A stretch of DNA of 49,305 bases, filler included, from Catajapyx aquilonaris (GCA_000934665.2; 2 parts of 2 records of this genome joined end to end with filler, not necessarily neighbours in it); one strand, 5' to 3'; positions 3,365 to 31,010 are shown, numbered from the whole stretch's first letter. Translations and numbers: made by a program. Notes: a model not told the origin generated them from the sequence alone.

Positions 3365-4338
3365 ATCTAAGGTTCACACCAATTAAGCAGTGCGTGAGAG
3401 TTGAACTGCCAACCATGAGATGGCATGGCAAGAACAGCTTAAAAGTCATTGGCGCCTTTTTCATACGAACAAATGAGCGAGAAAAATGCAAGCCATCATA
3501 TGATTGACGTAGGCGCTGGGGCACGACTATGCTCGGCAATCATATGATTGACGTCGCCCTCAACAGGTTAAGAGTCATCAAGAACTGGTTTCCTCTATCA
3601 CTAGGATAACCGTCCATCTGATCTTTGGTTTTGCAGGAATCCATTTTAATATCACAGGTCTATAGCAGGGGGGAAGAGACAGAAAGAATTTAACATGAAG
3701 GTTGCGCCTACCCTCTCTGACAGACGCAGCTCTACCAGCACCATGGAAGTAGCATAGGGGTACAGTATAATAGTCGAGAATCAAACCGAACGAACCTTTC
3801 ACTAACCTTTCTTCCATTTTGCAGAAAAGAGTCCCAGAACACAGCGGTTGTCATAAGCAAGCACACGACACTACTTGATTTCTGGAAGACCATCACAGCA
3901 ACAATATCTGACAGTCCAATATTCCGAGGAACAGAACTAGATTTTTAGAAGTGACTGATGACAGAGGCAACAGGTGAGGTCGCAATAAGAATATTGCAGT
4001 ATACAATATTGTCGAGTCTGACCAATTATTTCCCAGGAAATTGTCCTTCCCTACATCTCACCTTTTCAATTCCTGACTACAAATGACTGGCTTCGTTACC
4101 AGCAAAATTAATTTTTTCCATATGAGGAAGGTCAAATTGGTGAAAAATTGGCGCAGTGGTACGTTTGAGGAAGTAAAGTCATGAAATCCTGAAGTCTTCA
4201 TTTTATTGCGAGGTTTTGAATCCCTCAGATATCTTTGATGCTCCAGTCTTGTGAATGTGAGATTCCTCTTCGGTTATGCTCAGCACATAAAATTCAGTGT
4301 ACACAAGTCGACGACCAGTGGCTAGTAAGCCTGGCCTC

Positions 4339-7300
4339 CTATATCGGGCAAGAGATATCCGACAAAGCGAGATTATTGTGCTTAGCCTTACCAAATCTAG
4401 ACTTCAATGCAGAGCAGTAGAATTTGCTGAAAGGTGATTTGGTCATGAATCAACCGTAGGTATGTTTAAATAATAATAATGAGTTGGAGGTGACTCATTA
4501 CCTTTCTCCCTTGTCACTGAAGATGCTGAGGGTTTCTATGGGCGTGAACCCATGAAAATTAACAGTGGCAGTCACTGGTTTGGTGTAGTCCAACATTGAG
4601 CACACGCTGATCCCCACGTAGGAGTCGGTGTTCAAGTATCTGGGCGAAACATGAAAAGCCAATAATTTAATGCATAAATATTATGACCTGTGCTTATTGT
4701 CATTATTGTTGGTGATAATAATACTAGGATTCAAAATTAATGTTACTGAAGAGTTGTAAGTAATTCCAGGGTAGTCACTCCGTCGGTAAGTTCAAGCTTG
4801 CTGATCGTAATTCTCTTACTATGTTTCGCAGTAATCAGGAACTGTGTACCTGCAATATATATATTTTTTGCACTCATACATACTTTTCCTAAACAATGCA
4901 AGCACTGACCAAATAACGGTCGCTTGGCTCGAGTGATCAAGTACTGCGTTCCTCTACCAGGGTAATCGAAAGATTTATATCCCATGACACCGCATCCGTT
5001 CGGTTCGCACGTAAAGTGCTTTCCAGCCTGGTAATCCTTGAAAGTCGACTTTACTGGTGCTGGAAACGACTTGAACTCGCAATCTTTGGTGTGCAAGCTG
5101 GCATCGAAGTATGTCACGCTCATTCCGTGATTGCAGAATAAATCACCTACAATGATCAATATGAAATAAACACCTTATGTGTGCATTGGGTTTGAAACAC
5201 GCTGTATATAATATTTTAAATTTGTAATATCACCCTTCACTTCTTTGCAAAATGGCTGACTCGACCCGCCATTTGGATAGAAGTCAATGTGTCCCAGACG
5301 CTTAGAACAGCTCAGCTGATTGAAGGCGACGAACCCAGAGTTGGTGTGGACAATGTCCACCTTCCTGGCCTGTGACGGGTTCAGGTGGTACCCGGCACCT
5401 ACTTTGTTCAGGTAGCAAAACATCGGGCCTGCTGGGTCCAGACCTGCACGTGAAGTATACGTGTACTTGTCAGTGCATTTCGCACAATCATTATCATAAT
5501 AATTATTCGGCAAGAACTACACGAACGATTTTTCCAACGTTTTACCTGTTATACGTCCAAGCGTGAGATTGAAGCCAGTTCTCAGAAACTCCCCAGCATA
5601 TCCTGCGATTTGAGCCCCAGTACTGAATCCCACGATGTGAAAGTCATCAATATCAGCTCCCATGGACACCATGTTTCTTATCACCACTGCAGTCAATCTG
5701 CCGACAACCTCCGCGTTCAGACCGACCTCGACGTAGTTGATGTTTGCATACTCATTCCAGTCTATCATCACAGTGTTGACACACGGAAGCTGAAGGAAAG
5801 TGCATCTGCATTAGTGAACCACATTGATGGACATTTCATTTGATGAATATTCGCTCAGCCAGACATACTTTCATAAGCAGTGACTTTTCGATGTTCGACA
5901 TTCGATTCTCTTCCAATGTGTTTTGATATCCGTAGGCAAGAAAAATGGTCCGACAGGTGCGATTAAAACGGCTGGTTCGTACTGTCTCCTCGTCATTGTA
6001 CATCAGTCTCTCTGATTCCTCGGGATTGGCTGTCGTCCTCAACCAAAACTTTGTCGTGTTGGCGTAAGCATTCGTAGGAAGCTTCACAGCGTAGGTAGTA
6101 GGAGTCTTGTTAAAGCAGCCGATAAGATCTGGGGGGGGGAAATGGTAATGGTCGGTGTCGTTAGAAAATATTATTCAGACTCAGACTTGAACCAAAATGC
6201 ATTTTGCATGTCAGGAGTTCTGTGTCTGATTAAGAGGAACTCACCGTAGCATATGTTATCACGGCTAAACAATCTCTTTCCAGGAACAAGGCCAATGAAT
6301 TGCGCAACCGATCTTAATATTCCTGTGATGGGCGTGATGCTTTTGATTTTGGACATCAGACGACCGGTCAAGTGTTGTGGCTTTGGAGCAGGTGTGGGTC
6401 CCACTGGAGGCTTTGGCGTCACAGGAGCAGGAGGAGGAGGAGGACCGTCGCCGTCCCAAATTTCCTCTATTTCGTCTGGTTCCGGTTCCCCGTATTCTTG
6501 CCAGTCGCCACCGCCACCTCCATCGTCCCAGTCGTCATCAGGATCCGGCTGCCAGTCGTCATCTTGTTGCTGCCAGTCGCCAGCTTGTTGCTTCAAGTCG
6601 CCACCTTGTTGCTTCAAGCCTCCACCTGGCTGCGGCAAGTTGCCACCTTGTTGCTGCAAGTTGCCACCTTTTCGCTTCAAGTCGCCACCTGGTTGCTGCC
6701 AGTTGCCACCTTTTTGCTGCAAGTTGCCACCTGGTTGCTGCAAGTTGCCACCTGGTTGCTGCCAGTTGCCACCTGGTTGCTGCAAGTTGCCACCTGGTTG
6801 CTGCAAGTTGCCACCTGGTTGCTGCAAGTTGCCACCTGTTTGCTGCCAGTTGCTACCTTGTTGCTGCCAGTCGCCCCCTGGTTTCTGCCAGTCGCCCCCT
6901 TGTTGCTGCCAGTTGCCACCTTGTTGCTGCCAGTTGCCACCTTGTTGCTGCCAGTTGCCACCTCCCTGCTCAGGATACTTCCAGTTATTACCATATTGGT
7001 TCTCCTGTTGTTATTGCATTACATAAGACCCCCCCCGTGACTATAATACTGGTTGTAACCACTCGCCTGCTGCTGGTTTGATCCTCCGGAATACTGGTTG
7101 TAACCACCTCCATATTGCTGCTGTTGGTATGCCTGCCCCCCGTAGCCATTCTGCTGTTCATACTGACCCTTCACATTTGTGGAACCTAGAACTAATCACA
7201 TATCTCGTTGCAACAGGCGCAGGTGCAAGTGCCACATCGAGTATCTTATGGGGATCTATGTAAAGGACGCCATCTGGACATTCGCTCATAAATTGTATAT

Positions 7301-7398
7301 CTCTCCACACCGCCAAACAAAATTCATGTCTTTCAAAAGTAACTCACTGCTCTCCCCGATAATAATAGGAGAACAAAATGGATTTCTACGTAATGCAT
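4339..7398 (-). CDS. Secreted pancreatic-lipase-family protein, paralog 1, with Gly/Gln-rich repeat N-terminal extension (5' exon structure uncertain)
   Basis: Exons: putative signal exon 7398-7348; repeat exon ~7010-6245; 6128-5869; 5789-5546 (GFSTG); 5443-5234 (LDPAGP, GHIDFYPNGG); 5146-4910 (CNH); 4849-4747; 4639-4502; 4426-4339 (TAG). Downstream GT-AG introns keep frame and match the paralogs. Confidence 0.8.
6547..6963 (-). repeat. 21-bp coding minisatellite, about 19-20 units encoding GG[ND][WL]QQ[PQ] heptads
   Basis: Plus-strand unit approximately GCAAGTTGCCACCTGGTTGCT; in frame with the lipase ICY-G splice donor at 6245. Confidence 0.9.
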
Positions 7399-7679
7399 TC
7401 TTAATTTTTTTGTGTGGGATGGAGGAAGTCATGAACTTATGCAGCTGTTTTCTCATAGGCAAAAAGCATCGGAACTAATTTTGCTGTTACATATACAACA
7501 ACTTTTTTCGTGGGAGTTGAACCACATTACATGAGAAGAATAGCTAAACTCAATAATTGTTGGCCTTTATTATTTGAATTGCAAATATCTGGCCTTGAAA
7601 AAGTCACAATATATTTCGCTAGTTGCACATGTGGCAAAGGGTGGCAACGCTTCAAATGGCGCATTATGGATGCTCACAA

Positions 7680-7893
7680 ACGCGGCGTTCCAAGTTCAGG
7701 GGTGACTCTTTGATATGTGACATGATATCGTCCAATAGCAGTTATTTTTTGGTAGCTTGTTGTACCTCAAATCATATGCCCCATTCTATAACAAACTATT
7801 GTAGAATGGGGCACATGGTTAGGGGAACAACAGGCTACAAAAAATAACTGCTATCGGGCGATATCAGTGATCCCCGAACCTGCAGCACCCTGT
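7680..7893. mobile_element. Palindromic MITE (Tc1-like end CACCCTGTA)
   Basis: Inverted arms ~7724-7787 and ~7802-7866. Confidence 0.6.
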
Positions 7894-9523
7894 ACACGTG
7901 TCACTAAGCATTGGTTTCATTGAACAATGTGTGAGTCAAACCTTCCCTCCCCAATATGAAGCAATCCTGCCAACGGAATTTGATGATGATGAAGATAATG
8001 ATATGTACGGATTAACGTGTCATTAAAATTAAAATTCGGGAAGGTTCCTAGCACCTTTTTGGTCATTCCAAAGGAGAACAAATTGCTAACTGTCCACTGT
8101 CGAGACCGACTTTTAGAAACTCAGAGAATAATAGGAAAAGCTGAGTTTAATTTTTTTTCTGATATTACTAGAGACAACTAAAACTATTGTCAAAAAATAT
8201 AGCACACGTCCTGGACGGTGTAATACCCTTCAATCAATTATGTCATTTCATGAGTTATAGCGTCACATTAGGACCTCATCCCTCATGTACAGAGTGAGTC
8301 AAAGTTATCCAGCGGTCAGTGAAAGTCCGATATGCAAGAGTGGCAAATGTCATTAAGCATAATCATTAACAATGATGGACTGTTGGTTTAGCTTTAGAAA
8401 CACTCTTACACTATTACAGATAAGGCTACAATCATATTCAGAGTCATAAATTACGTTCAGCGGTTGGTTTCCGGTTGCTGTCTCTGCAATTTTCGCCCTG
8501 CACATTTTAAAATTACTGCGTTAGGCCAATCTAGCTGGACAGCCTCGAGTTATGACTCACTTTATATAAGTTATCACAATTGATCAATCACATTGTGACC
8601 CCCCTCCCACCTGACCCCTACAAGAGTGACGTCCTCTATGGAAGACCCCTTAATAATTATACTTGCGCAGGAAGACGGCTACAGCTGTCTTGAAGTCAGT
8701 CATACCCAAGCAATCCACTTATTGGAAGCCAGGTCGGCTTACATACTGTATGTTGCATTACACGTGTACTACGCAGTCCTCACTTGACGCTTTTTACGCA
8801 TTCTCCGATCAATATTTTTGCCATTATATTTGAAACAATAAACTGGCGATAACTGATATATTCTTATGAAGTACATGCCGTCTCAGGATTAGAATCCCAT
8901 ATACAGAGGGAATTACTCTTCCAAAAAAAGAGAGTAAGACTTCTACACGGACTTTTGTCGCATTATTGCGTCACTAAATTGAAGACATTGAAAAGAAATT
9001 AATAAAGCAGACTACAGAAAAAATTATCAACACACTTCCAATCAATTCAAATGCCCTTCTGCACCTTCAGTTGCAAAAAATTACCTTCAAATTCATGAAC
9101 AATAAATATTTTATGAAGCTGTACACAGAGCATTCAGTTTTTTTGTTTCATTCAAAAATGAGGCGATAATAGGGTGCAGAGCTCGGTTCATCTGCATCAT
9201 TGTTTAGGGAAGATTGGAGTATGCTTTTATTACTGGCACAACAAAGCACTGTAGGTATATCACTTTATTTGATAAGCTATTCCGTACGTTACGTCAGAGT
9301 TTTCTTATGGCTTTCAGGTTTTTGCTGAAACAATATTTGTTCAAAACAGGTCAGTCAGAACTCCTGGTCAATCACCTGCTGTGGAATATTCGTCTCATCC
9401 TGCATTTTAGACTTGTAACTTAATATAGGACAACAAATTATCCTGGCGAGAGAATGACCTGGAACTGTGGCTCATCCTGTATTGAAATCCACATTCGATT
9501 TTTTTTTTAATTGGCCTACATAT

Positions 9524-19580: not shown

Positions 19581-19782
19581 AGCACCAACATGGTGAATAT
19601 CACAAAATTTCGCATTTTTTTCCTCCCTTAAATTAATTCATATTAATTTATTTAAATCATTTTAAAGCCATAAACTATTTGGTAATTAACTAGCCTCTGG
19701 CGGAGGTGTCGCCGCCTGGTGTCACACATTTTATTGTTTGAAATACTTTCCTTCTTGTCCGTTGCCGACTTTTTTCCTCCTA

Positions 19783-20893
19783 ATGGAGCCAATGAGCCTA
19801 GGTTCGCCCGTGGGCGGCCCCGGGGCGGCAGGGGCATCCCCGATGCAGCAGCAGCAGCCCCAGCAGCAGCCCCAGCCGCAGCAGTACCTCCCTCCCTACC
19901 TGATGGGAGAGACCTCGCCCACCGCTGGCTCTCCGCAGACCACGGTTGGGTTCACAAATTAATTAATAATTAATAATTAACACTAATTGTACCAATTCCC
20001 AGGCAAGTCCTCGTGGCTTCCATATGAGTCCCAGCAAAGACCAGGCGTCGTCCCAGACGTACTTGCTCCTCCGCACTCCCAGGCAGTCCGTTGGGCAGTC
20101 TCCGAGGGTTGCGTCCATCGGCGAGAAGCACCATCACCACCACCACCACGGAGGGCCTCCCACCAAGTCGCTCTTCCAGGGAGGCAGGCCCTCGCCTATC
20201 ACGCCCATGTCCGCACCTGCCACGCCCTCCTTCTACTCTCCTGGCCCGCCCATGCCGCCCATGGACACCACCACTTTGGACTCATCCCGCGCTGAAGGGA
20301 CCACCACCGCATGGGTCACCGTCTTCGGGTTCCCGCCCAGCGCTGCCTCGTTTGTGCTCCAGCAGTTTAGCGGGTACGGAACCGTGGTGGAGCGTCGACC
20401 GGGGGCAACCCCTGGGTCCAACTGGATGCATCTCAGATACGCAACGCCGCTGCAGGCACACCGGGCGTTGTCGAAGAACGGGAGGATCTTCGGCGGGTCT
20501 GTCATGGTCGGAGTTGTGCCGTACCATCCGCAGGTTCGTGCGCATTGTATCCGTAGCCTGCTGTCAATAATTTAATCCTTTCCACAGGGTGCACCGGATG
20601 ACTCGCAGAAGGAGAACGTGTTTCCATCGTGGAGTAGGATCGAGTCCCCGATAGATTCAACCACTCTTTTGGACGAGGGAAGCCCGCTGACTGGCATGAG
20701 GCCACTGACTCAAGCTTATGAAGTATCGCGGGCAGAGCATGAGGTACATATTCCCTGGTCACTTTGGACCTTCAATTTGCCATCTTTGTACTTAATATTG
20801 TTTTAATCATTACAGGTTGTTCAAAAGTCGCAGACTCCGCGCAAGAGCACGAGTGTCGTGTCCAAAGCCATGGAGTATGTGTTTGGGTGGTGA
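19783..20893 (+). CDS. NUP35: Nucleoporin Nup35/Nup53
   Basis: Exons 19783-19944, 20003-20533, 20588-20743, 20816-20893. MEPMSLGSP start, YLPPYLMG motif, PPTKSL, RRM WVTVFGFPP...NWMHLRY...ALSKNG..FG..MVGV, C-terminal SKAMEYVFGW. Confidence 0.95.
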
Positions 20894-21351
20894 CCAAGGC
20901 ACGTTGCGATTTTATGGAATTTTGTATGACTGAAATCATTAAAGGTTGACCTTCCAGTTGTTTCCATGCGTCTTTTCATTCCGGACCTTATCATTTTGCA
21001 AGAATTCCAGCAACTTTGGAAGAACCAATAAACTTGATGGAATGCCTTCATTTTGACCCATGGCATGAACACTAATTATGTCATTTGACCTTTAGCCGAC
21101 ACTTGGCAATTTGTTAGGGATATGGCCACATTTGCATATTAGCTGCTTAATCAGCAATCGCTGAGTAATGTTTGGGGAGAAACGCGATTGTTACTTTCAC
21201 ACCAAACAATTGGGATTCATTGCTCATGTAAACGCAGCCTAAAGTGAGTGCAACACACTTGTTACCGAGCATTGCCATTGACGTACAAACAAATTATGAT
21301 GACACCTAGCAACAGAAATATTCCAATAAAAGGTTAATCTGGTTACAGAAA

Positions 21352-22390
21352 ATGGATCGCAAGCTGACGGTACGTATGCGTACATGAGCAAACGTGTTCT
21401 CAATCTTGCGTGAATACTTGTGTTTCTTTCAGTTAAGCCCTGGAGGCTTCCACTTGAGTCCAACTGAACCAGACCCGAGTCCATCCCGGACATACATAAC
21501 CTTCGACACCCCAAGACCAACTGATGGCCAGTCATCCCACGTGACGTACATGGGAGGAAGGTTCCATCGCTGCCGTGGCAAACCCCCAATCAAGTCCCTC
21601 TTCCCAAACGAGTCCTCGCCGACCACTCCTTACACTCCTTACTACGCTCCTGGAACACCTTCCATTCAGGGGCTACCTCTGGACCCAACCGTCCTGGATT
21701 CATCCTGCTCTCCAAGGCTTCCTTCTACGTGGGTGACGGTGTTCGGTTTTCCACCCGGCGGCTTGAAGTTTGTGCTCCATGAGTTTGAAGGGTGTGGTAG
21801 CATGATGGAGTATCGAACCGGCGCTGCACCGAGAGCCAACTGGATGCACCTGAGATACGCAACACCTGAGCAGGCCTGCCGAGCACTGTCCAAGAATGCC
21901 AAGGTCTTGGGTGGGTCCATGATGGTCGGGGTTATGCCATACTATCCAGAGGTACGCACATCATTTTAGTTGTCTGTCGAGTATAATGCATCGATTTCAT
22001 CTGCAGGGTCCACCAAATGATTCCCAGAAGGTGAATCTGTTTCCATCGTTGGATGGAAACAAATCCCATTTCCATCCATCCCTCTTTCGTGAAGGAGGCC
22101 CATTGGCTAGACTGAGGCCATTGATGCAATCGCAGGAGGCGGCGCCTGCCAAAAGCGAGGTGCAGTACATGGGGGATGTTCTTTCTTGTTTCGTTTTAAC
22201 ATTACAGAGGAACCCAGGGATAATTTTTTTGCATTACTTCCACTGCTCTCAAAGGGGATTCCATAACCTTCATTTACAGGTTTTTCTTATCAATTTCTTA
22301 TCGAATCAGCAGGTTACTCAGAAGGTACTGCCTCCGCAGAGGAGCACGAGTATCATATCCAAAGCCATGGACTACGTGTTTCAGAGGTGA
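21352..22390 (+). CDS. Diverged tandem Nup35 paralog (N-terminally truncated; start uncertain)
   Basis: Exons 21352-21369 (MDRKLT), 21433-21951, 22007-22159, 22313-22390. Same intron positions and phases as Nup35; RRM intact; ends SKAMDYVFQR; no stops. Confidence 0.8.
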
Positions 22391-22921
22391 CTTGCGCATG
22401 TTGTGATTTTGTGTAATCATTCTTGACCGAATTAAAATTTCACCTTCCAGTTCTTGCGTTATTTTCTGATTAGCAAGATTGGTTCCAGTACGAGGGCATG
22501 CCAATTGCTGCTGTCAGAGAAGATTTTGAATGTCATGCTGACAAAACATGTTGACTATTTTCACGTGACGGCATAAAATACATCAGATACATAATGTTTT
22601 TCCCCCATCACCTTAACTGTATTAAATTAATGAGTTGCACAAACGAATCGGGAAATAATACAGCCTCCACTACAATACCAACTTCTGCATCACAAATGCA
22701 GAACAACCGCAAATACACAAAATCCACATGAACACATTATTCAAAAAACAACATCAACTCGGGGACAACCATAAGTTTTGAAACAAACCCCGATAAGTCC
22801 ATTTCTGTTATGGTCTAACGCTTTTTTTATATTTTATTTCTGATGCTGGATGATACAAGAGTCATGATTGTGTGTGTAAGGGGCAAATGTAAGGGAGACT
22901 TAATTCTTAGAAACCATTATT

Positions 22922-23802
22922 TTACTTGGGATCATCGAGAGAGGCAGCCCCAAGGTCGGTCATCCTTGGGAATCGGACCTTCTTACGCTCTAGCTCGTCC
23001 TGTGCCCAGAGGATAAGTTTCAACAAGGTGGCCAATCTTGGGCTTGTCGCTTCATCCTGATTCTCCTGCCTCAAAATTGCAGCGTTCAGCTCCGAGGCCA
23101 CCTTCTGGCGATGCGACGGGTGCAGCAGGTCGGCAAACGGGGATGACTCCGGCTCATCAAAAGCAAGCAGAGCCAAAGTGCGTTCCAGTTCACGAAGTAC
23201 CTGATGGTACATTGCAATTAGTACCGTTGCGCTTTCATTACTTGAATAATTCCAGCATTACTTTAGGATTCTCCTCCCCCCTCTCGCTGAGATGGTCCTG
23301 TGCGAAGGCAAGTGCCGCGTCCAGATTCCGCTGTCGAATCAGTTCAATCAGATGTTGCTGCTGTAGGTGGAAGAAGAGGTAGCGGTCTTGATCCAGCAGC
23401 TCCGGATGCAAGCGGTTAACAAGCGCAGTGGCTTCGGTGATCCGGCCGTTCTGCACAGCCTCCCGGATTCTGATGCGCTCCTCCAGCGACTCAAGAGCAA
23501 CGGACGCACGTGCGCCACACTCTGCCTCAAACTTCTCCGCCGCTTCCTTGAATCCCTCTGTCGAATAACATCAAAGGTAATTACATCTTCCTCTGTGCTC
23601 CACGTTCTTTTTATCTGACCCTCTGAACAGTACCTGTGACCAGATAGTCCATAATGAGCTTGTTCATGTCCGCTCTTTGGACCTGCAGCGATTCCAGCCT
23701 CTCCTGCCACCTCTCCTTGGACGCCTCATCCCCTCCAGACGCCGACCCTGGTCCGGACCCCGCACCGGACCCGCCAGACCCACTCTTCTCCACGAAACTC
23801 AT
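22922..23802 (-). CDS. GID8: Glucose-induced degradation protein 8 homolog (TWA1; LisH-CTLH-CRA)
   Basis: Exons 23802-23634, 23557-23262, 23200-22922. [22 protein letters not shown] (LisH), [15 protein letters not shown] (CTLH), [11 protein letters not shown]...[13 protein letters not shown] (CRA). Confidence 0.95.
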
Positions 23803-23934: not shown

Positions 23935-24372
23935 ACGCATGCGCACCATTTGTGTGCAGACCGGTGAAGGCGCATGCGTATGTCAAGCGCATTATTGAAT
24001 GTGTAAACCAGTGTCATGTACGTGCCGGCGCATGCGTATTACAAAACGCATTGAATGTTCAAACCAGTACTGGCAGGCGCACGCGTATTGTGAAGCAGAT
24101 TGAATGTTCAAACCAGTATCACGTACTGGCAGGCGCATGCGTATTGTGAAGCAGATTGAATGTGTAAATCAGCATATGTACGTGCAGGCGCATGCGCAGT
24201 TGTGTAGCTGATTGAATGTGCAAACCAGTTTCATGTACGTGCAGGCGCATGCGTATTATCAAGCGCATTATTGAATGTGCAAAGCAGAATCATGTACGTG
24301 CAGGCGCATGCGTATTGTGAAGCACATTGAATGTGCAAATCAGTATCATGTATGTGCAGGCGCATGCGCACA
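23935..24372. repeat. ~56-bp tandem minisatellite (about 7 units) with GCGCATGCG core, upstream of GID8
   Basis: Unit approximately GGCGCATGCGTATTGTGAAGCAGATTGAATGTGCAAACCAGTATCATGTACGTGCA, starting near 23969, 24027, 24076, 24132, 24187, 24244, 24303 and 24359. Confidence 0.9.
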
Positions 24373-28244: not shown

Positions 28245-31010
28245 ACAACAACAACAACACCATCACGACATTTCCCTATAAGGGGTAGTCAGCGATGACG
28301 GGAGCCACAAGGTAACCCAAAATATTAACTAAATTAAAAATGGTAAAAATCCGTCTATAAACCACCCATATAACCCCCCCCCCCTGCCCATCTCAGACAG
28401 CAAACTCTCAATATTATANCCCCCCCCCCCCCCCCGGAAGAAGAATCAGCAACTGTTAAATTCCTCCAAGTGACTATAATATTCTCCTCCAAACGACCAG
28501 AACACCCACAGGCCATCGAGAAGAACCAGCATACAGAAATCCATACCCGAACTCTAAGCGCTGTGCAGGACAGAGAGAGAGCCAGACACCCTTGCAAGCA
28601 TGACTACCGGTGTGCAAGAGATATTTGCCAAACTTGTACAGTTCTGCACAGCACCCAGAGCCCGAGCATGAACCTCCACACGCTGACTCCTCCCACCAAC
28701 CTGCAAACATTCTATAGCCATTCGGAAAAATTCAATGGACACTGCCATTCCTCACAAACCCGCGAATATTCTACCCATTAATTAACCTACGCCATTTACA
28801 CCTATCCAAACAAACAACCTTAAAGGGAAGGTCACGGGGTGATAATGTCGGATCTTGATGAAATTGGACATGCTAATACAGGACAATATATGATGCCCAA
28901 AAATGAAATATTTCGTGCTGACGTCCATATTTGCAAAAGTTATGACGTCTTAAAGTTCCAAAAATAATACATTTTCATACTCCATGGGATTACATTAGCG
29001 ACCACATATAATGACATTGTAGTGTGTAATCAGTTTCTAGACCTTTTCTCATCGGAAAAAAGTCCTACAGAACTGCTCTGGCCGTCCGTCCGTCCGTCCG
29101 TCTGTGGACAGGTATAAAGGCCTAAACCATAAGAGATAGCGACAAACGGTTTTCATATTCGGATTGAGAGTGACCAAAATAGGTTTCATGGTCAACTTCT
29201 GGTGACCCGCCACTTACGGTCTTCCGGGTTCACTCTATCCGCACATGTCTATACTTTAGTGAATGGTTCATACAGAAACACATATTGCAATGTGCACAAC
29301 AAAAGAAGCTCATCTCATAACGAGAAAAGGTCTAGAAACTGATTACACACTTCAATGTCATTATATGTGGTCGCTAATGTAATCCCATGGAGTATGAAAA
29401 TGTATTATTTTTGGAACTTTAAGACGTCATAACTTTTGCAACTATGGACGTCAGCACGAAATATTTCATTTTTGGGCATCATATATTGTCCTGTATTAGC
29501 ACGTCCAATTTCATCAAGATCCGACATTATCACCCCGTGACCTTCCCTTATTAGCTTCAGCCACGTCCATGGTCCTATTGACACATGAACGTCTAGGCTT
29601 AACACTAGCAACACCCTTAAGACACTTGCCCACCTGGTCCAACCATGTCTTCCTAGGCCTACCCTTGCCCCTCTTACCAACTACTCCACCCAAATAAACC
29701 TTCTTCACAATCTCCTCCTCCTTCAACCTCTCCACATGGCCAAACCACCTTAGAGTAGACTTACACACCTTATCTTTAACAGTCTCCTTAAAATTACACC
29801 TCTGCAAAATCTCCTCATTCCTCATCCTATCCAACTTGGTAACCCCACAAACAGCCCGGAGATAACGCATCTCTGTAGCCAACACCATACTCTTATGCCT
29901 ATCTGACCAAACCCACGCTTCACTACCATACATAAGTGAAGGAACAATAATGTGAGAATAGACAGACAACCTACAGGCAGAAGATAAGTCCTTATTTCTA
30001 GAAAACTTACTTGTGGCACCTGTCACTTTCAACCCAGAACTAACTCTCCTATCAATCTCCCCATCCATTCTACCATTACTCTCAAGGACACTACCCAGGT
30101 ATACAAACTGGTTGACCTGCTCAACCAGTTTTCCTCGTACCTGCAACATACAAGGAGAAACCTGCTGTCTTCTCTCAAATACCAATCCCTTAGTCTTATC
30201 TACATTAATCCTCATACCCCTCTTTTCACAAACATTATCTAACTTGCATAGGATCAACTGTAAATCAGCCTCACTCTCCGCCAGAAGGGCAGAATCATCT
30301 GCATACAGCAAGTGACTAACTAACTCATCACCAAACTGCACTCCTACACCTTCAACCATAGCTTCCCTTACACATGCATCTAATTAAGTACAAGTTAAAT
30401 AACCAGGGAGACATGACACAACCCTGCTTAACCCCAACACTAATGTTAAACCAGTCAGAGAAACCCCCACTAGCTCTAACACAAGCTCTACTCTCTTCAT
30501 ACAATGACTTTACAGCCTCCAACAGGCGACCCTTCACTCCATAGAGACTCAGAACTTCCCACAAACCTTCCCTATACTCACTGTGTCATAATTATGCTTT
30601 CTCTAAGTCTACAAAGGCAACATAAACCTTCTTGTTTACAGCTAAATACTTTTCTATCACGAGTCTCATACAGAATATCTGATCTACGCAACTCTTACCC
30701 GACATAAACCCACTCTGAATATTCAGTATTCTCTGACTTGAGGGGTGAGGGTGAGGGGTAGGCGGGGATGATGTAGTTACTTTTTTGACTAATTTATGTA
30801 GGGTTTCTTTTGATAATGGTGTGGTTCCTAGGGATTTGGAGGGATGCTATTATAGTACCTCTGTATAAGGGTAAGGGAGATGTGTGTGATTGCAAGAATT
30901 ATCGTGGCATTAGTTTGTTAAGTGTACCAGGGAAAGTGTATGCTAAGGTTTTGATAGAAAGAGTTAGGAGGGTCACGAGTCAGAGAATACTGAATATTCA
31001 GAGTGGGTTT
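28245..31010 (-). mobile_element. 5'-truncated, 5'-inverted RTE-clade LINE
   Basis: RT motifs GVKQGCVMSPWLFN, LLYADD, LRWFGHVERL, GRPRKTW on minus. The upstream RT part (YRGISLLSVPGKVY) lies on plus at ~30810-31010. (TTG)n tail; 12-bp TSD ATCCCATAGATA at 28233-28244 and 31011-31022. Confidence 0.9.
28824..29548. mobile_element. Foldback element with ~230-bp inverted arms inserted in the RTE ORF end
   Basis: 28824-29050 is the reverse complement of 29322-29548. The RTE reading MDVAEA-KVVCLDRCKWRRLING* is restored on removal. The centre has (GTCC)n. Confidence 0.85.

What the first reader, a model, noticed from the sequence alone, without database searches (positions are those of the whole stretch)
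6245..7185. Lipase fused to a gluten/prion-like Gly-Gln-Trp heptad-repeat domain with acidic and proline-rich linkers
Seen: the exon that ends in the lipase ICY-G donor also encodes about 19-20 GG[ND][WL]QQ[PQ] heptads, then an Asp/Trp-rich acidic block (DDDWQPDPDDDWDD..EPEPDEIEEIWD) and a Pro-rich stalk (PPPPPAPVTPKPP). Further upstream is G/Q/Y-rich sequence (QQNGYGGQAYQQQQYGGGYNQY). The three paralogs have only a short pro-region here. Inference: a secreted enzyme carrying an aromatic sticker-and-spacer disordered domain that could drive condensation, transglutaminase cross-linking or tethering in a secretion such as glue, silk, egg coat, saliva or venom. I do not know this architecture from the pancreatic lipase family.
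Basis: partly seen in the sequence, partly recalled or inferred. Interest (0 to 1): 0.8.

Follow-up and report, generated by a model that had tools for sequence, protein, structure and literature searches.

The report
Secreted lipase with Gly-Gln repeat front
An arthropod fat-splitting enzyme gene, transcribed and apparently intact, has gained a long floppy glycine- and glutamine-rich repeat ahead of the enzyme, an unusual add-on found in only two recently duplicated, fast-changing copies, whose job is still unknown.

Summary
The architecture is real. A ten-exon minus-strand gene (8703-4339, 720 aa) encodes a signal peptide, a Gln/Gly/Tyr segment, 19 heptads, an acidic block, a Pro stalk, a basic helix and a pancreatic-type lipase with intact Ser-Asp-His. 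Spliced contigs from one public run support 8 of 9 introns. They join the signal exon to the first heptad, and the Pro stalk to the lipase. The 477 bases in between are not bridged. A frameshift and a stop upstream of the array lie in a 101-nt GC-AG intron that looks born from former repeat-coding DNA. One sister copy elsewhere in the genome has 13 heptads, only 3 with Trp, and no acidic block. This weakens the aromatic-sticker idea. The other 39 lipase loci examined have no array. The two copies diverge fast from the lid onward yet stay open. No lipase with such an array turned up in protein or paper searches (weak negatives), but other arthropod lipases and vertebrate CEL carry different repeat tails. 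Best reading: a minisatellite-expanded disordered pro-domain acting as spacer or tether, possibly clipped at a Lys-Arg site. Glue or condensate roles are untested.

The parts
8667..8703 (-). Exon 1 coding part: start codon and first half of the signal peptide
   Evidence: ATG at 8703; RNA joint 7191/8667 in run X5; 36 of 37 bases identical in the sister copy
7192..8666 (-). Intron 1, GC-AG, 1475 nt, phase 1
7067..7191 (-). Exon 2: end of signal peptide and Gln/Gly/Tyr-rich segment
   Evidence: covered by X5 record 27 with no difference; 125 of 125 bases identical in the sister
6966..7066 (-). Intron 2, GC-AG, 101 nt, phase 0; holds a G-run frameshift and an in-frame TAA; looks like former repeat-coding sequence
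   Evidence: skip seen in one X5 contig (depth 4.5, 31 letters on the short side), absent from DNA runs X1-X3; shares an exact 18-mer with exon 2
6564..6962 (-). 19 tandem 21-nt units coding Gly-Gly-(Asn/Asp)-(Trp/Leu)-Gln-Gln-(Pro/Gln) heptads
   Evidence: DNA contigs match 6326-6664 with no difference; first 31 nt in spliced RNA, 6458-6855 without RNA cover
6444..6563 (-). Acidic Asp/Glu/Trp block, net charge -19, built partly from decayed heptads; absent from the sister copy
6372..6443 (-). Pro-rich stalk
   Evidence: on X5 record 26, which splices to the lipase
6245..6371 (-). Basic amphipathic helix ending in Gly-Lys-Arg (possible convertase site), then the CY motif that opens the lipase domain
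   Evidence: hydrophobic moment up to 2.05, net +6; the only helix in the low-confidence model; similar helices precede CY in paralogs and mite lipases
4910..6128 (-). Exons 4-7 (6128-5869, 5789-5546, 5443-5234, 5146-4910): PF00151 lipase catalytic domain; Ser codon 5624-5622 in GFSTG, Asp in DPAG, His in CNH; long beta9 loop, short lid
   Evidence: Pfam Lipase on each exon, E 1.7e-4 to 2.7e-15; PLRP2, LPL and pancreatic lipase in PDB, E 1e-10 to 1e-8; RNA joints
4339..4909 (-). Exons 8-10 (4849-4747, 4639-4502, 4426-4339): C-terminal domain of about 109 aa, rapidly diverging
   Evidence: RNA record 25 matches with no difference; no Pfam match for exons 8 and 9; divergence

Best explanation
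The gene makes a secreted precursor: signal peptide, about 270 residues of pro-region, then a short-lid neutral lipase with an intact triad. Shown: the gene structure, transcription, the triad, and the repeat in the lipase frame. Inferred: (1) the enzyme prefers phospholipid or galactolipid and is weak on triglyceride (20-residue beta9 loop, 10-residue lid). (2) The family's small pro-region was inflated by slippage of a 21-nt exonic minisatellite in the ancestor of two young paralogs. (3) The array works as a flexible polar spacer, solubility tag or loose tether whose length and make-up matter more than its exact letters. (4) It is probably released in the secretory path or outside the cell at the Lys-Arg site just before the lipase domain. 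The fast divergence of the two enzymes suggests a specialised exocrine product (reproductive, salivary or defensive) rather than a housekeeping lipase.
For: Open 720-aa frame with 8 of 9 introns seen as RNA joints. The array is open only in the lipase frame in the window copy. The sister's exon 3 differs by 213 nt, a whole number of codons. FoldIndex is negative over all four low-complexity segments; AlphaFold pLDDT 41, no fold (two-row alignment, weak). The pair nests beside window paralog 2 (98/94) among lipases with short pro-regions. 10 of 16 homolog rows with a full N-terminus have a dibasic or RxxR site within 16 residues of CY (rows include near-duplicates). Heptad changes look unconstrained at residue level. 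Lid and loop thresholds: PMC7240578, passages read. Exons 8-10 differ at 70 of 329 bases against 23 of 242 in introns 7-9, p = 1.4e-4.
Against: No RNA contig bridges 6458-6934, and 6458-6855 has no RNA cover. The frame must stay open between signal peptide and enzyme anyway, so an open array is no proof that it is useful. The three window paralogs lack a clear convertase site (only Lys-Lys in one), so cleavage is not a fixed trait of this clade. Overall dN/dS of 1.56 is not significantly above 1 (p = 0.12); only the lid-to-end part is (p = 0.024). No tissue, protein or activity data exist.
Confidence: 0.5

Rival explanations
1. One reading: the repeat is a structural scaffold. Gln, Tyr and Trp residues drive condensation or are cross-linked (transglutaminase, dityrosine), fixing the lipase in a glue, spermatophore, egg coat or prey-directed secretion.
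For: 56 Gln, 13 Trp, 7 Tyr and 11 Lys in the pro-region; signal peptide; young duplicates with fast amino-acid change. Lipases and transglutaminase-linked plug proteins both occur in insect ejaculates (PMC2785885, passages read). Likeness to glutenin, resilin and prion repeats is recalled, not tested.
Against: The sister has 3 Trp in the pro-region and no acidic block. Heptad substitutions are neutral-like. A possible cleavage site would part scaffold and enzyme. No tissue is known.
Confidence: 0.22
2. The array is a tolerated passenger: a minisatellite that grew in a pro-peptide which is discarded, with no function beyond keeping the frame.
For: 12 nonsynonymous to 3 synonymous distinct changes against 46:14 possible. 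Copy number 19 against 13 and wholesale loss of the acidic block between copies about 6.5% apart at silent sites. Part of the same low-complexity tract has already decayed into an intron. Other arthropod lipases carry unrelated low-complexity tails.
Against: Both transcribed copies keep 200-270 residues of pro-region. Exon 2 is identical between copies (125 of 125), while the enzyme's later exons diverge; gene conversion could also explain that.
Confidence: 0.15
3. Most of the array is removed by splicing inside exon 3. Each Pro-Gly junction offers CAG|GT, so a skip between units would keep the frame and yield a lipase with only a few heptads.
For: No RNA cover at 6458-6855 although DNA contigs cover it; this gene uses weak and GC splice sites.
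Against: No such joint was listed. The RNA contig on the 3' side begins at 6457, which is not behind an AG. RNA depth falls from 35 to 4.5 towards the 5' end, and contigs break in repeats.
Confidence: 0.07
4. The acidic block is a built-in stabiliser of the enzyme, as the disordered acidic domain of GPIHBP1 is for lipoprotein lipase; the heptads are its leash.
For: Same enzyme family as LPL; net -19 disordered block; GPIHBP1 precedent in PMC4755760 (abstract read).
Against: The sister lacks the block although its C-terminal domain is more basic (14 basic, 6 acidic, against 11 and 9).
Confidence: 0.04
5. Pseudogene or assembly artefact: the stop and frameshift upstream of the array close the gene.
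For: Read-through of exon 2 hits a stop; the G-run length varies between copies. The intron-2 joint rests on one contig of depth 4.5.
Against: The skip has GC-AG ends kept in both copies and restores the frame exactly. About 95 amino-acid-changing differences between the copies with no stop, where 5.5 are expected, P about 0.004. Both copies' letters appear in RNA.
Confidence: 0.02

Closest known systems
Arthropod neutral (pancreatic-type) lipases, Pfam PF00151; e.g. XP_071444045.1 (Hetaerina), XP_059472437.1 (Neocloeon), XP_064476995.1 (Ornithodoros)
   Same: Catalytic domain, triad, CY..GC opening motif, short pro-region with a basic end, long beta9 loop with short lid.
   Different: Only 29-36% identical over the domain. 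None of 51 hits of 300 aa or more has over 17 Gly+Gln in 60 residues; this protein has 39.
Pancreatic lipase-related protein 2 (PDB 2pvs, 1bu8, 1gpl)
   Same: Best solved matches for exon 6, E about 1e-10.
   Different: No repeat pro-domain; a PLAT-type C-terminal domain was not shown here.
Mammalian carboxyl ester lipase (CEL) with its 11-residue VNTR tail
   Same: Secreted lipase carrying an exonic minisatellite of variable copy number (1-39 units), of uncertain function, proposed to aid stability or secretion (PMC3227413, passages read).
   Different: Another enzyme family; the tail is C-terminal, Pro/Thr-rich and O-glycosylated, not N-terminal Gly/Gln.
Mite, tick and ostracod lipases with low-complexity appendages (CAG2100125.1, RWS25932.1, KAG0411174.1, CAG0921498.1)
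   Same: Same family with short tandem repeats or poly-Gln/His next to the lipase domain.
   Different: Different residues, far shorter, unrelated in origin; these are predicted models.
Glutamine-rich repeat regions such as Drosophila Argonaute-2 GRR; glutenin, resilin and prion repeats
   Same: Gly/Gln tandem repeats with copy-number change (PMC4978909 and PMC10114355 seen as search listings only; the others recalled).
   Different: No homology shown. The only long-protein match to the array was a convergent archaeal repeat protein.
Intron gain by intronization or tandem genomic duplication
   Same: Intron 2 duplicates 18 nt of the upstream exon, reads as repeat-like code, holds a stop and has CAG|G at both ends, as in the routes reviewed in PMC3443670 (passages read).
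   Different: GC donor; born inside a low-complexity tract; no outgroup species was available to date it.

Membership tests
Pancreatic/neutral lipase family (PF00151) | Profile match across the catalytic domain | tested here: met
   Four consecutive exons match profile positions 28-97, 100-177, 176-243, 261-335; three of the four pass the curated cut-off alone
Pancreatic/neutral lipase family (PF00151) | Ser-Asp-His triad with G-x-S-x-G elbow | tested here: met
   GFSTG at 435, DPAG at 465, CNH at 537 of the model; also in the sister
Pancreatic/neutral lipase family (PF00151) | Signal peptide | tested here: inconclusive
   Hydrophobic 21-residue N-terminus, mean hydropathy 0.79, RNA-joined exons; judged by eye, no SignalP available
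Pancreatic/neutral lipase family (PF00151) | C-terminal PLAT/beta-sandwich domain | tested here: inconclusive
   About 109 aa in the right place; BLAST aligns through it to two mayfly isoforms, but no Pfam or phmmer support
Pancreatic/neutral lipase family (PF00151) | Lipolytic activity | not testable with these tools
   needs expressed protein
Triglyceride-active insect neutral lipases | beta9 loop over 15 residues | tested here: met
   20 residues His-to-His, counted by eye; rule from PMC7240578
Triglyceride-active insect neutral lipases | Lid of at least 18 residues | tested here: not met
   10 residues Cys-to-Cys, counted by eye
Aromatic sticker-and-spacer (prion-like) condensate domains | Disordered, polar, low-complexity composition | tested here: met
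   FoldIndex -0.17 to -0.84; pLDDT 41
Aromatic sticker-and-spacer (prion-like) condensate domains | Regular aromatic stickers kept by selection | tested here: not met
   Trp in 9 of 19 heptads here, 3 of 13 in the sister; changes neutral-like
Aromatic sticker-and-spacer (prion-like) condensate domains | Phase separation or fibril formation | not testable with these tools
   bench test; PLAAC not available
Transglutaminase-cross-linked structural proteins (plug, glue) | Gln donors and Lys acceptors; co-secretion with a transglutaminase; isopeptide links | not testable with these tools
   56 Gln and 11 Lys present; tissue unknown
Introns gained from exonic sequence | Intron absent from paralogs and resembling the flanking coding sequence | tested here: met
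   18-mer shared with exon 2 (300 shuffles: mean 6.9, max 12); Gly/Gln/Tyr/Asn/Trp share 0.66, 0 of 2000 shuffles reach it; three paralogs read open through this region (their exon bounds are predicted). The heptad-like unit at its 3' end alone is weak (73 and 117 of 2000 shuffles)
Introns gained from exonic sequence | Outgroup species with the stretch still exonic | not testable with these tools
   no related genome is held

The most novel reading that the evidence does not exclude
A lineage-specific two-in-one secretion protein: a Gly/Gln elastomer-like block that sets or is cross-linked into a matrix (spermatophore stalk, egg coat, glue or prey-directed secretion) and carries or releases a membrane-active lipase. 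It was born recently by minisatellite growth in a pro-peptide, is diversifying under positive selection, and has spawned a new GC-AG intron from its own repeat.
Probability: 0.2. Interest if true: 0.78.

Novelty: new variant of a known kind. Interest (0 to 1): 0.52.

Why it matters
It is a datable case of a structural-protein-like repeat arising inside an enzyme's pro-peptide. Two young copies differ in array length, Trp content and an acidic block, and short-pro-region paralogs sit next door, so they form a natural comparison set. If the repeat sets or cross-links, it would be a new route to enzyme-loaded secretions in a poorly studied arthropod lineage. The same locus offers a clear candidate for intron birth from low-complexity coding DNA. 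If the array is only a discarded spacer, it is a curiosity comparable to the CEL tail.

Tried and rejected
Word-indexed protein search with the 81-aa elbow exon: 41 candidates, none scored; uninformative. ESM Atlas with exon 3: no usable hit; shows neither novelty nor absence. No run was listed as RNA; X5 was taken as RNA only because its contigs skip GT-AG and GC-AG introns. Lack of RNA cover at 6458-6855 is not treated as evidence of absence. Six other low-complexity hits in the own genome: two loci were read and are unrelated repeats; three further loci were not read. Allele rather than paralog for the sister copy: judged unlikely because the flanks differ on both sides, exons 8-10 differ by 21%, and letters of both copies appear in a second sample; a very divergent haplotype is not excluded. 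Contig depth was not used as copy number. Polarising changes with paralog 2 gave 9 against 8, with 56 of 73 sites unresolved. The GID8 tree places the host outside winged insects and malacostracans but in no supported group. A Gly-Lys-Arg amidated antimicrobial peptide reading of the basic helix was considered (motif recalled); similar helices precede the CY motif in paralogs and mite lipases, so it was not pursued. Paper searches found no description of this architecture; the library lacks most subscription papers and no supplements were read. Earlier-finding look-ups by sequence, place and words were empty. No complex prediction was run.

Full report
Observation. The minus strand carries a 21-nt tandem array at 6548-6963 (19.8 copies, 87% match). 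It codes 19 heptads (6962-6564), then an acidic block, a Pro stalk, a basic segment and the CY motif with a GT donor at 6245, in one stop-free frame. Downstream exons match Pfam Lipase PF00151 in order and solved PLRP2, LPL and pancreatic lipases. The triad is intact.

In the DNA, the Gln/Gly/Tyr stretch near 7185-7070 is in another frame from the array and runs into a stop; the array's own frame has a TAA at its head. Five public runs hold the locus; four were laid on 3800-9500. Run X5 has no library label, but its contigs skip introns exactly, so it is taken as RNA. It shows 8 of the 9 modelled introns; intron 4 was not listed and is predicted from GT-AG and frame. Two joints settle the problem. 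One joins an upstream exon at 8667 to 7191 (GC-AG, 1475 nt), which supplies a start codon and a hydrophobic signal peptide. The other skips 101 nt from 7066 to 6966 (GC-AG), removing both the frameshift and the stop and landing in the heptad frame. This second joint rests on one contig of depth 4.5 with 31 letters on the short side, and is absent from the three DNA runs. Those 31 letters cannot be assigned to one of the two gene copies from the tables. Another contig runs from 6457 through the Pro stalk into the lipase exon and is specific to the window copy. The ten exons give an open frame of 720 residues. The 477 bases 6458-6934 are not bridged by any listed RNA contig, and 6458-6855 has no RNA cover, so one transcript carrying the whole array is inferred, not shown.

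A sister gene. The genome holds a second copy on contig C1424, 88-91% identical over most of about 5.5 kb, with different flanks on both sides. It has the same exon structure and GC-AG introns and encodes 649 residues with 13 heptads, 3 of them with Trp, and no acidic block. Letters of both copies occur in X5, which comes from another sample than the DNA runs. It is most likely a young paralog; a divergent haplotype is not excluded. A scan of the fetched DNA gave 43 lipase hit rows, 41 distinct after removing two duplicates, with 5 kb of upstream DNA for 34 of them. Only these two carry the array. The family count is a lower bound. In a tree of the elbow exon (82 columns, poorly resolved overall) the pair is sister to window paralog 2 with 98/94 support. 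That paralog and the two others in the window have about 60 residues of pro-region. The array is therefore a derived, recent gain.

Is the array under selection? The frame is open and the copies differ by whole codons, but that is required anyway between a signal peptide and an enzyme. Distinct changes among 32 heptads are 12 nonsynonymous, 3 synonymous and 0 stops, against 46, 14 and 3 possible: no sign of residue-level constraint. Trp and the acidic block, the basis of the sticker idea, are largely missing from the sister (13 against 3 Trp in the pro-region). All four low-complexity segments score as disordered; AlphaFold on a two-row alignment gave pLDDT 41 with a single helix in the basic segment, which is weak evidence. 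That segment ends in Gly-Lys-Arg. Ten of 16 homolog rows with a full N-terminus have a dibasic or RxxR site at the same place, so release of the pro-region is plausible; convertase specificity is recalled knowledge.

The enzyme. The beta9 loop is 20 residues and the lid 10. By the rule quoted in PMC7240578 (passages read: loop over 15, lid at least 18 for triglyceride activity) this predicts weak triglyceride activity, as in many insect neutral lipases. Between the copies dN/dS is 0.74 up to the lid, 2.9 from the lid to the end of the catalytic domain, and 2.0 in the C-terminal domain. Lid-to-end N against S gives p = 0.024; the whole enzyme gives p = 0.12; exons 8-10 differ more than their introns (70 of 329 against 23 of 242, p = 1.4e-4) (regions chosen after seeing the alignment, no correction for multiple tests). 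About 95 amino-acid-changing differences arose with no stop where 5.5 are expected (P about 0.004). Both copies thus look functional and fast-evolving, a pattern that fits specialised secretions but names none.

A by-product: intron 2 looks new. It shares an exact 18-mer with exon 2 (300 shuffles: mean 6.9, maximum 12). Read in the frames of its flanking exons it is 66% Gly/Gln/Tyr/Asn/Trp; none of 2000 shuffles reached that, and the gene's other introns score at most 0.39 in any frame. A heptad-like unit at its 3' end is only weakly significant. The paralogs read open through the matching region. This fits intronization or gain by tandem duplication as reviewed in PMC3443670 (passages read). 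No outgroup could be checked.

Host. GID8 in the window is at most about 73% identical to its best matches, which are arthropod proteins, and falls outside winged insects and malacostracans, in no supported group. Guesses about silk, venom or spermatophores therefore have no organism-level support.

Comparison with what is known. The 150 best of 821 library hits are ordinary arthropod and mollusc pancreatic-type lipases where named. Among the 51 of at least 300 residues, none exceeds 17 Gly+Gln in 60 residues, against 39 here. Several have other low-complexity tails, such as Thr/Glu/Ser heptads in a mite model and poly-Gln/His in an ostracod. A search of long proteins with exon 3 scored 8000 candidates and returned one convergent archaeal repeat protein, no lipase. 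Paper searches showed no such architecture; these are weak negatives. The closest working analogue is mammalian carboxyl ester lipase, whose exonic 11-residue VNTR varies from 1 to 39 units and has no settled function (PMC3227413, passages read). GPIHBP1's acidic domain stabilising LPL (PMC4755760, abstract only) and transglutaminase-set mating plugs (PMC2785885, passages) are analogies, not tests. Likeness to glutenin, resilin and prion repeats is recalled.

Verdict. It is a member of the neutral lipase family with an unusual, recently gained repeat pro-domain: a new variant of a known kind. The most likely role is a disordered spacer or tether, possibly cleaved (0.5); a cross-linked or condensing scaffold remains open (about 0.2). 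Interest 0.52.

Noticed in passing
window 6966-7066 (-): GC-AG intron that appears to have arisen from repeat-coding DNA. An internal GT donor about 57 nt from its 3' end would be in frame only with a longer G-run, as a DNA contig with four more G suggests for the sister copy; possibly an older donor.
   Followed up: partly
window 7192-8666 and 6966-7066 (-): Two of the gene's nine introns use GC donors, both kept in the sister copy; GC donors are recalled to be about 1% of introns.
   Followed up: partly
window 4339-5146 against G000:C1424:39760-40572: Exons from the lid onward diverge faster than their introns between the two copies, suggesting diversifying selection after duplication.
   Followed up: yes
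G000 contigs C1424, C3226, C367, C1159 and others: Large expansion of neutral lipases: at least 41 loci, eight on C1424, with varied elbow motifs and several near-identical pairs.
   Followed up: partly
window 19780-20900 and about 21390-22400 (+): Two tandem Nup35/Nup53-like genes; the second is more diverged and may be decaying.
   Followed up: no
window 22925-23720 (-): GID8 homolog on a long branch, used for host placement.
   Followed up: partly
window 43057-44546 (+) and 29514-30383 (-): Gag-like and integrase-like frames of a probable LTR retroelement (weak PNMA match; class judged by eye), and a non-LTR reverse transcriptase fragment.
   Followed up: no
L013:1227-2019 (G000:C7339) and L012:1488-1766 (G000:C6451): Other 21-nt coding-like arrays: an Ala/Gly/Glu/Ser/Gln/Pro heptad run at the end of an open frame, and a Pro-Gly-Thr-Gly-Trp-Asn-Gln heptad run; unrelated to the lipase array.
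   Followed up: no
window 7800-7870: Short high-copy repeat inside intron 1 (summed contig depth in the thousands), absent or different in the sister copy.
   Followed up: no
window 23964-24368: 56-nt tandem repeat, 7.3 copies, next to the scaffold gap.
   Followed up: no
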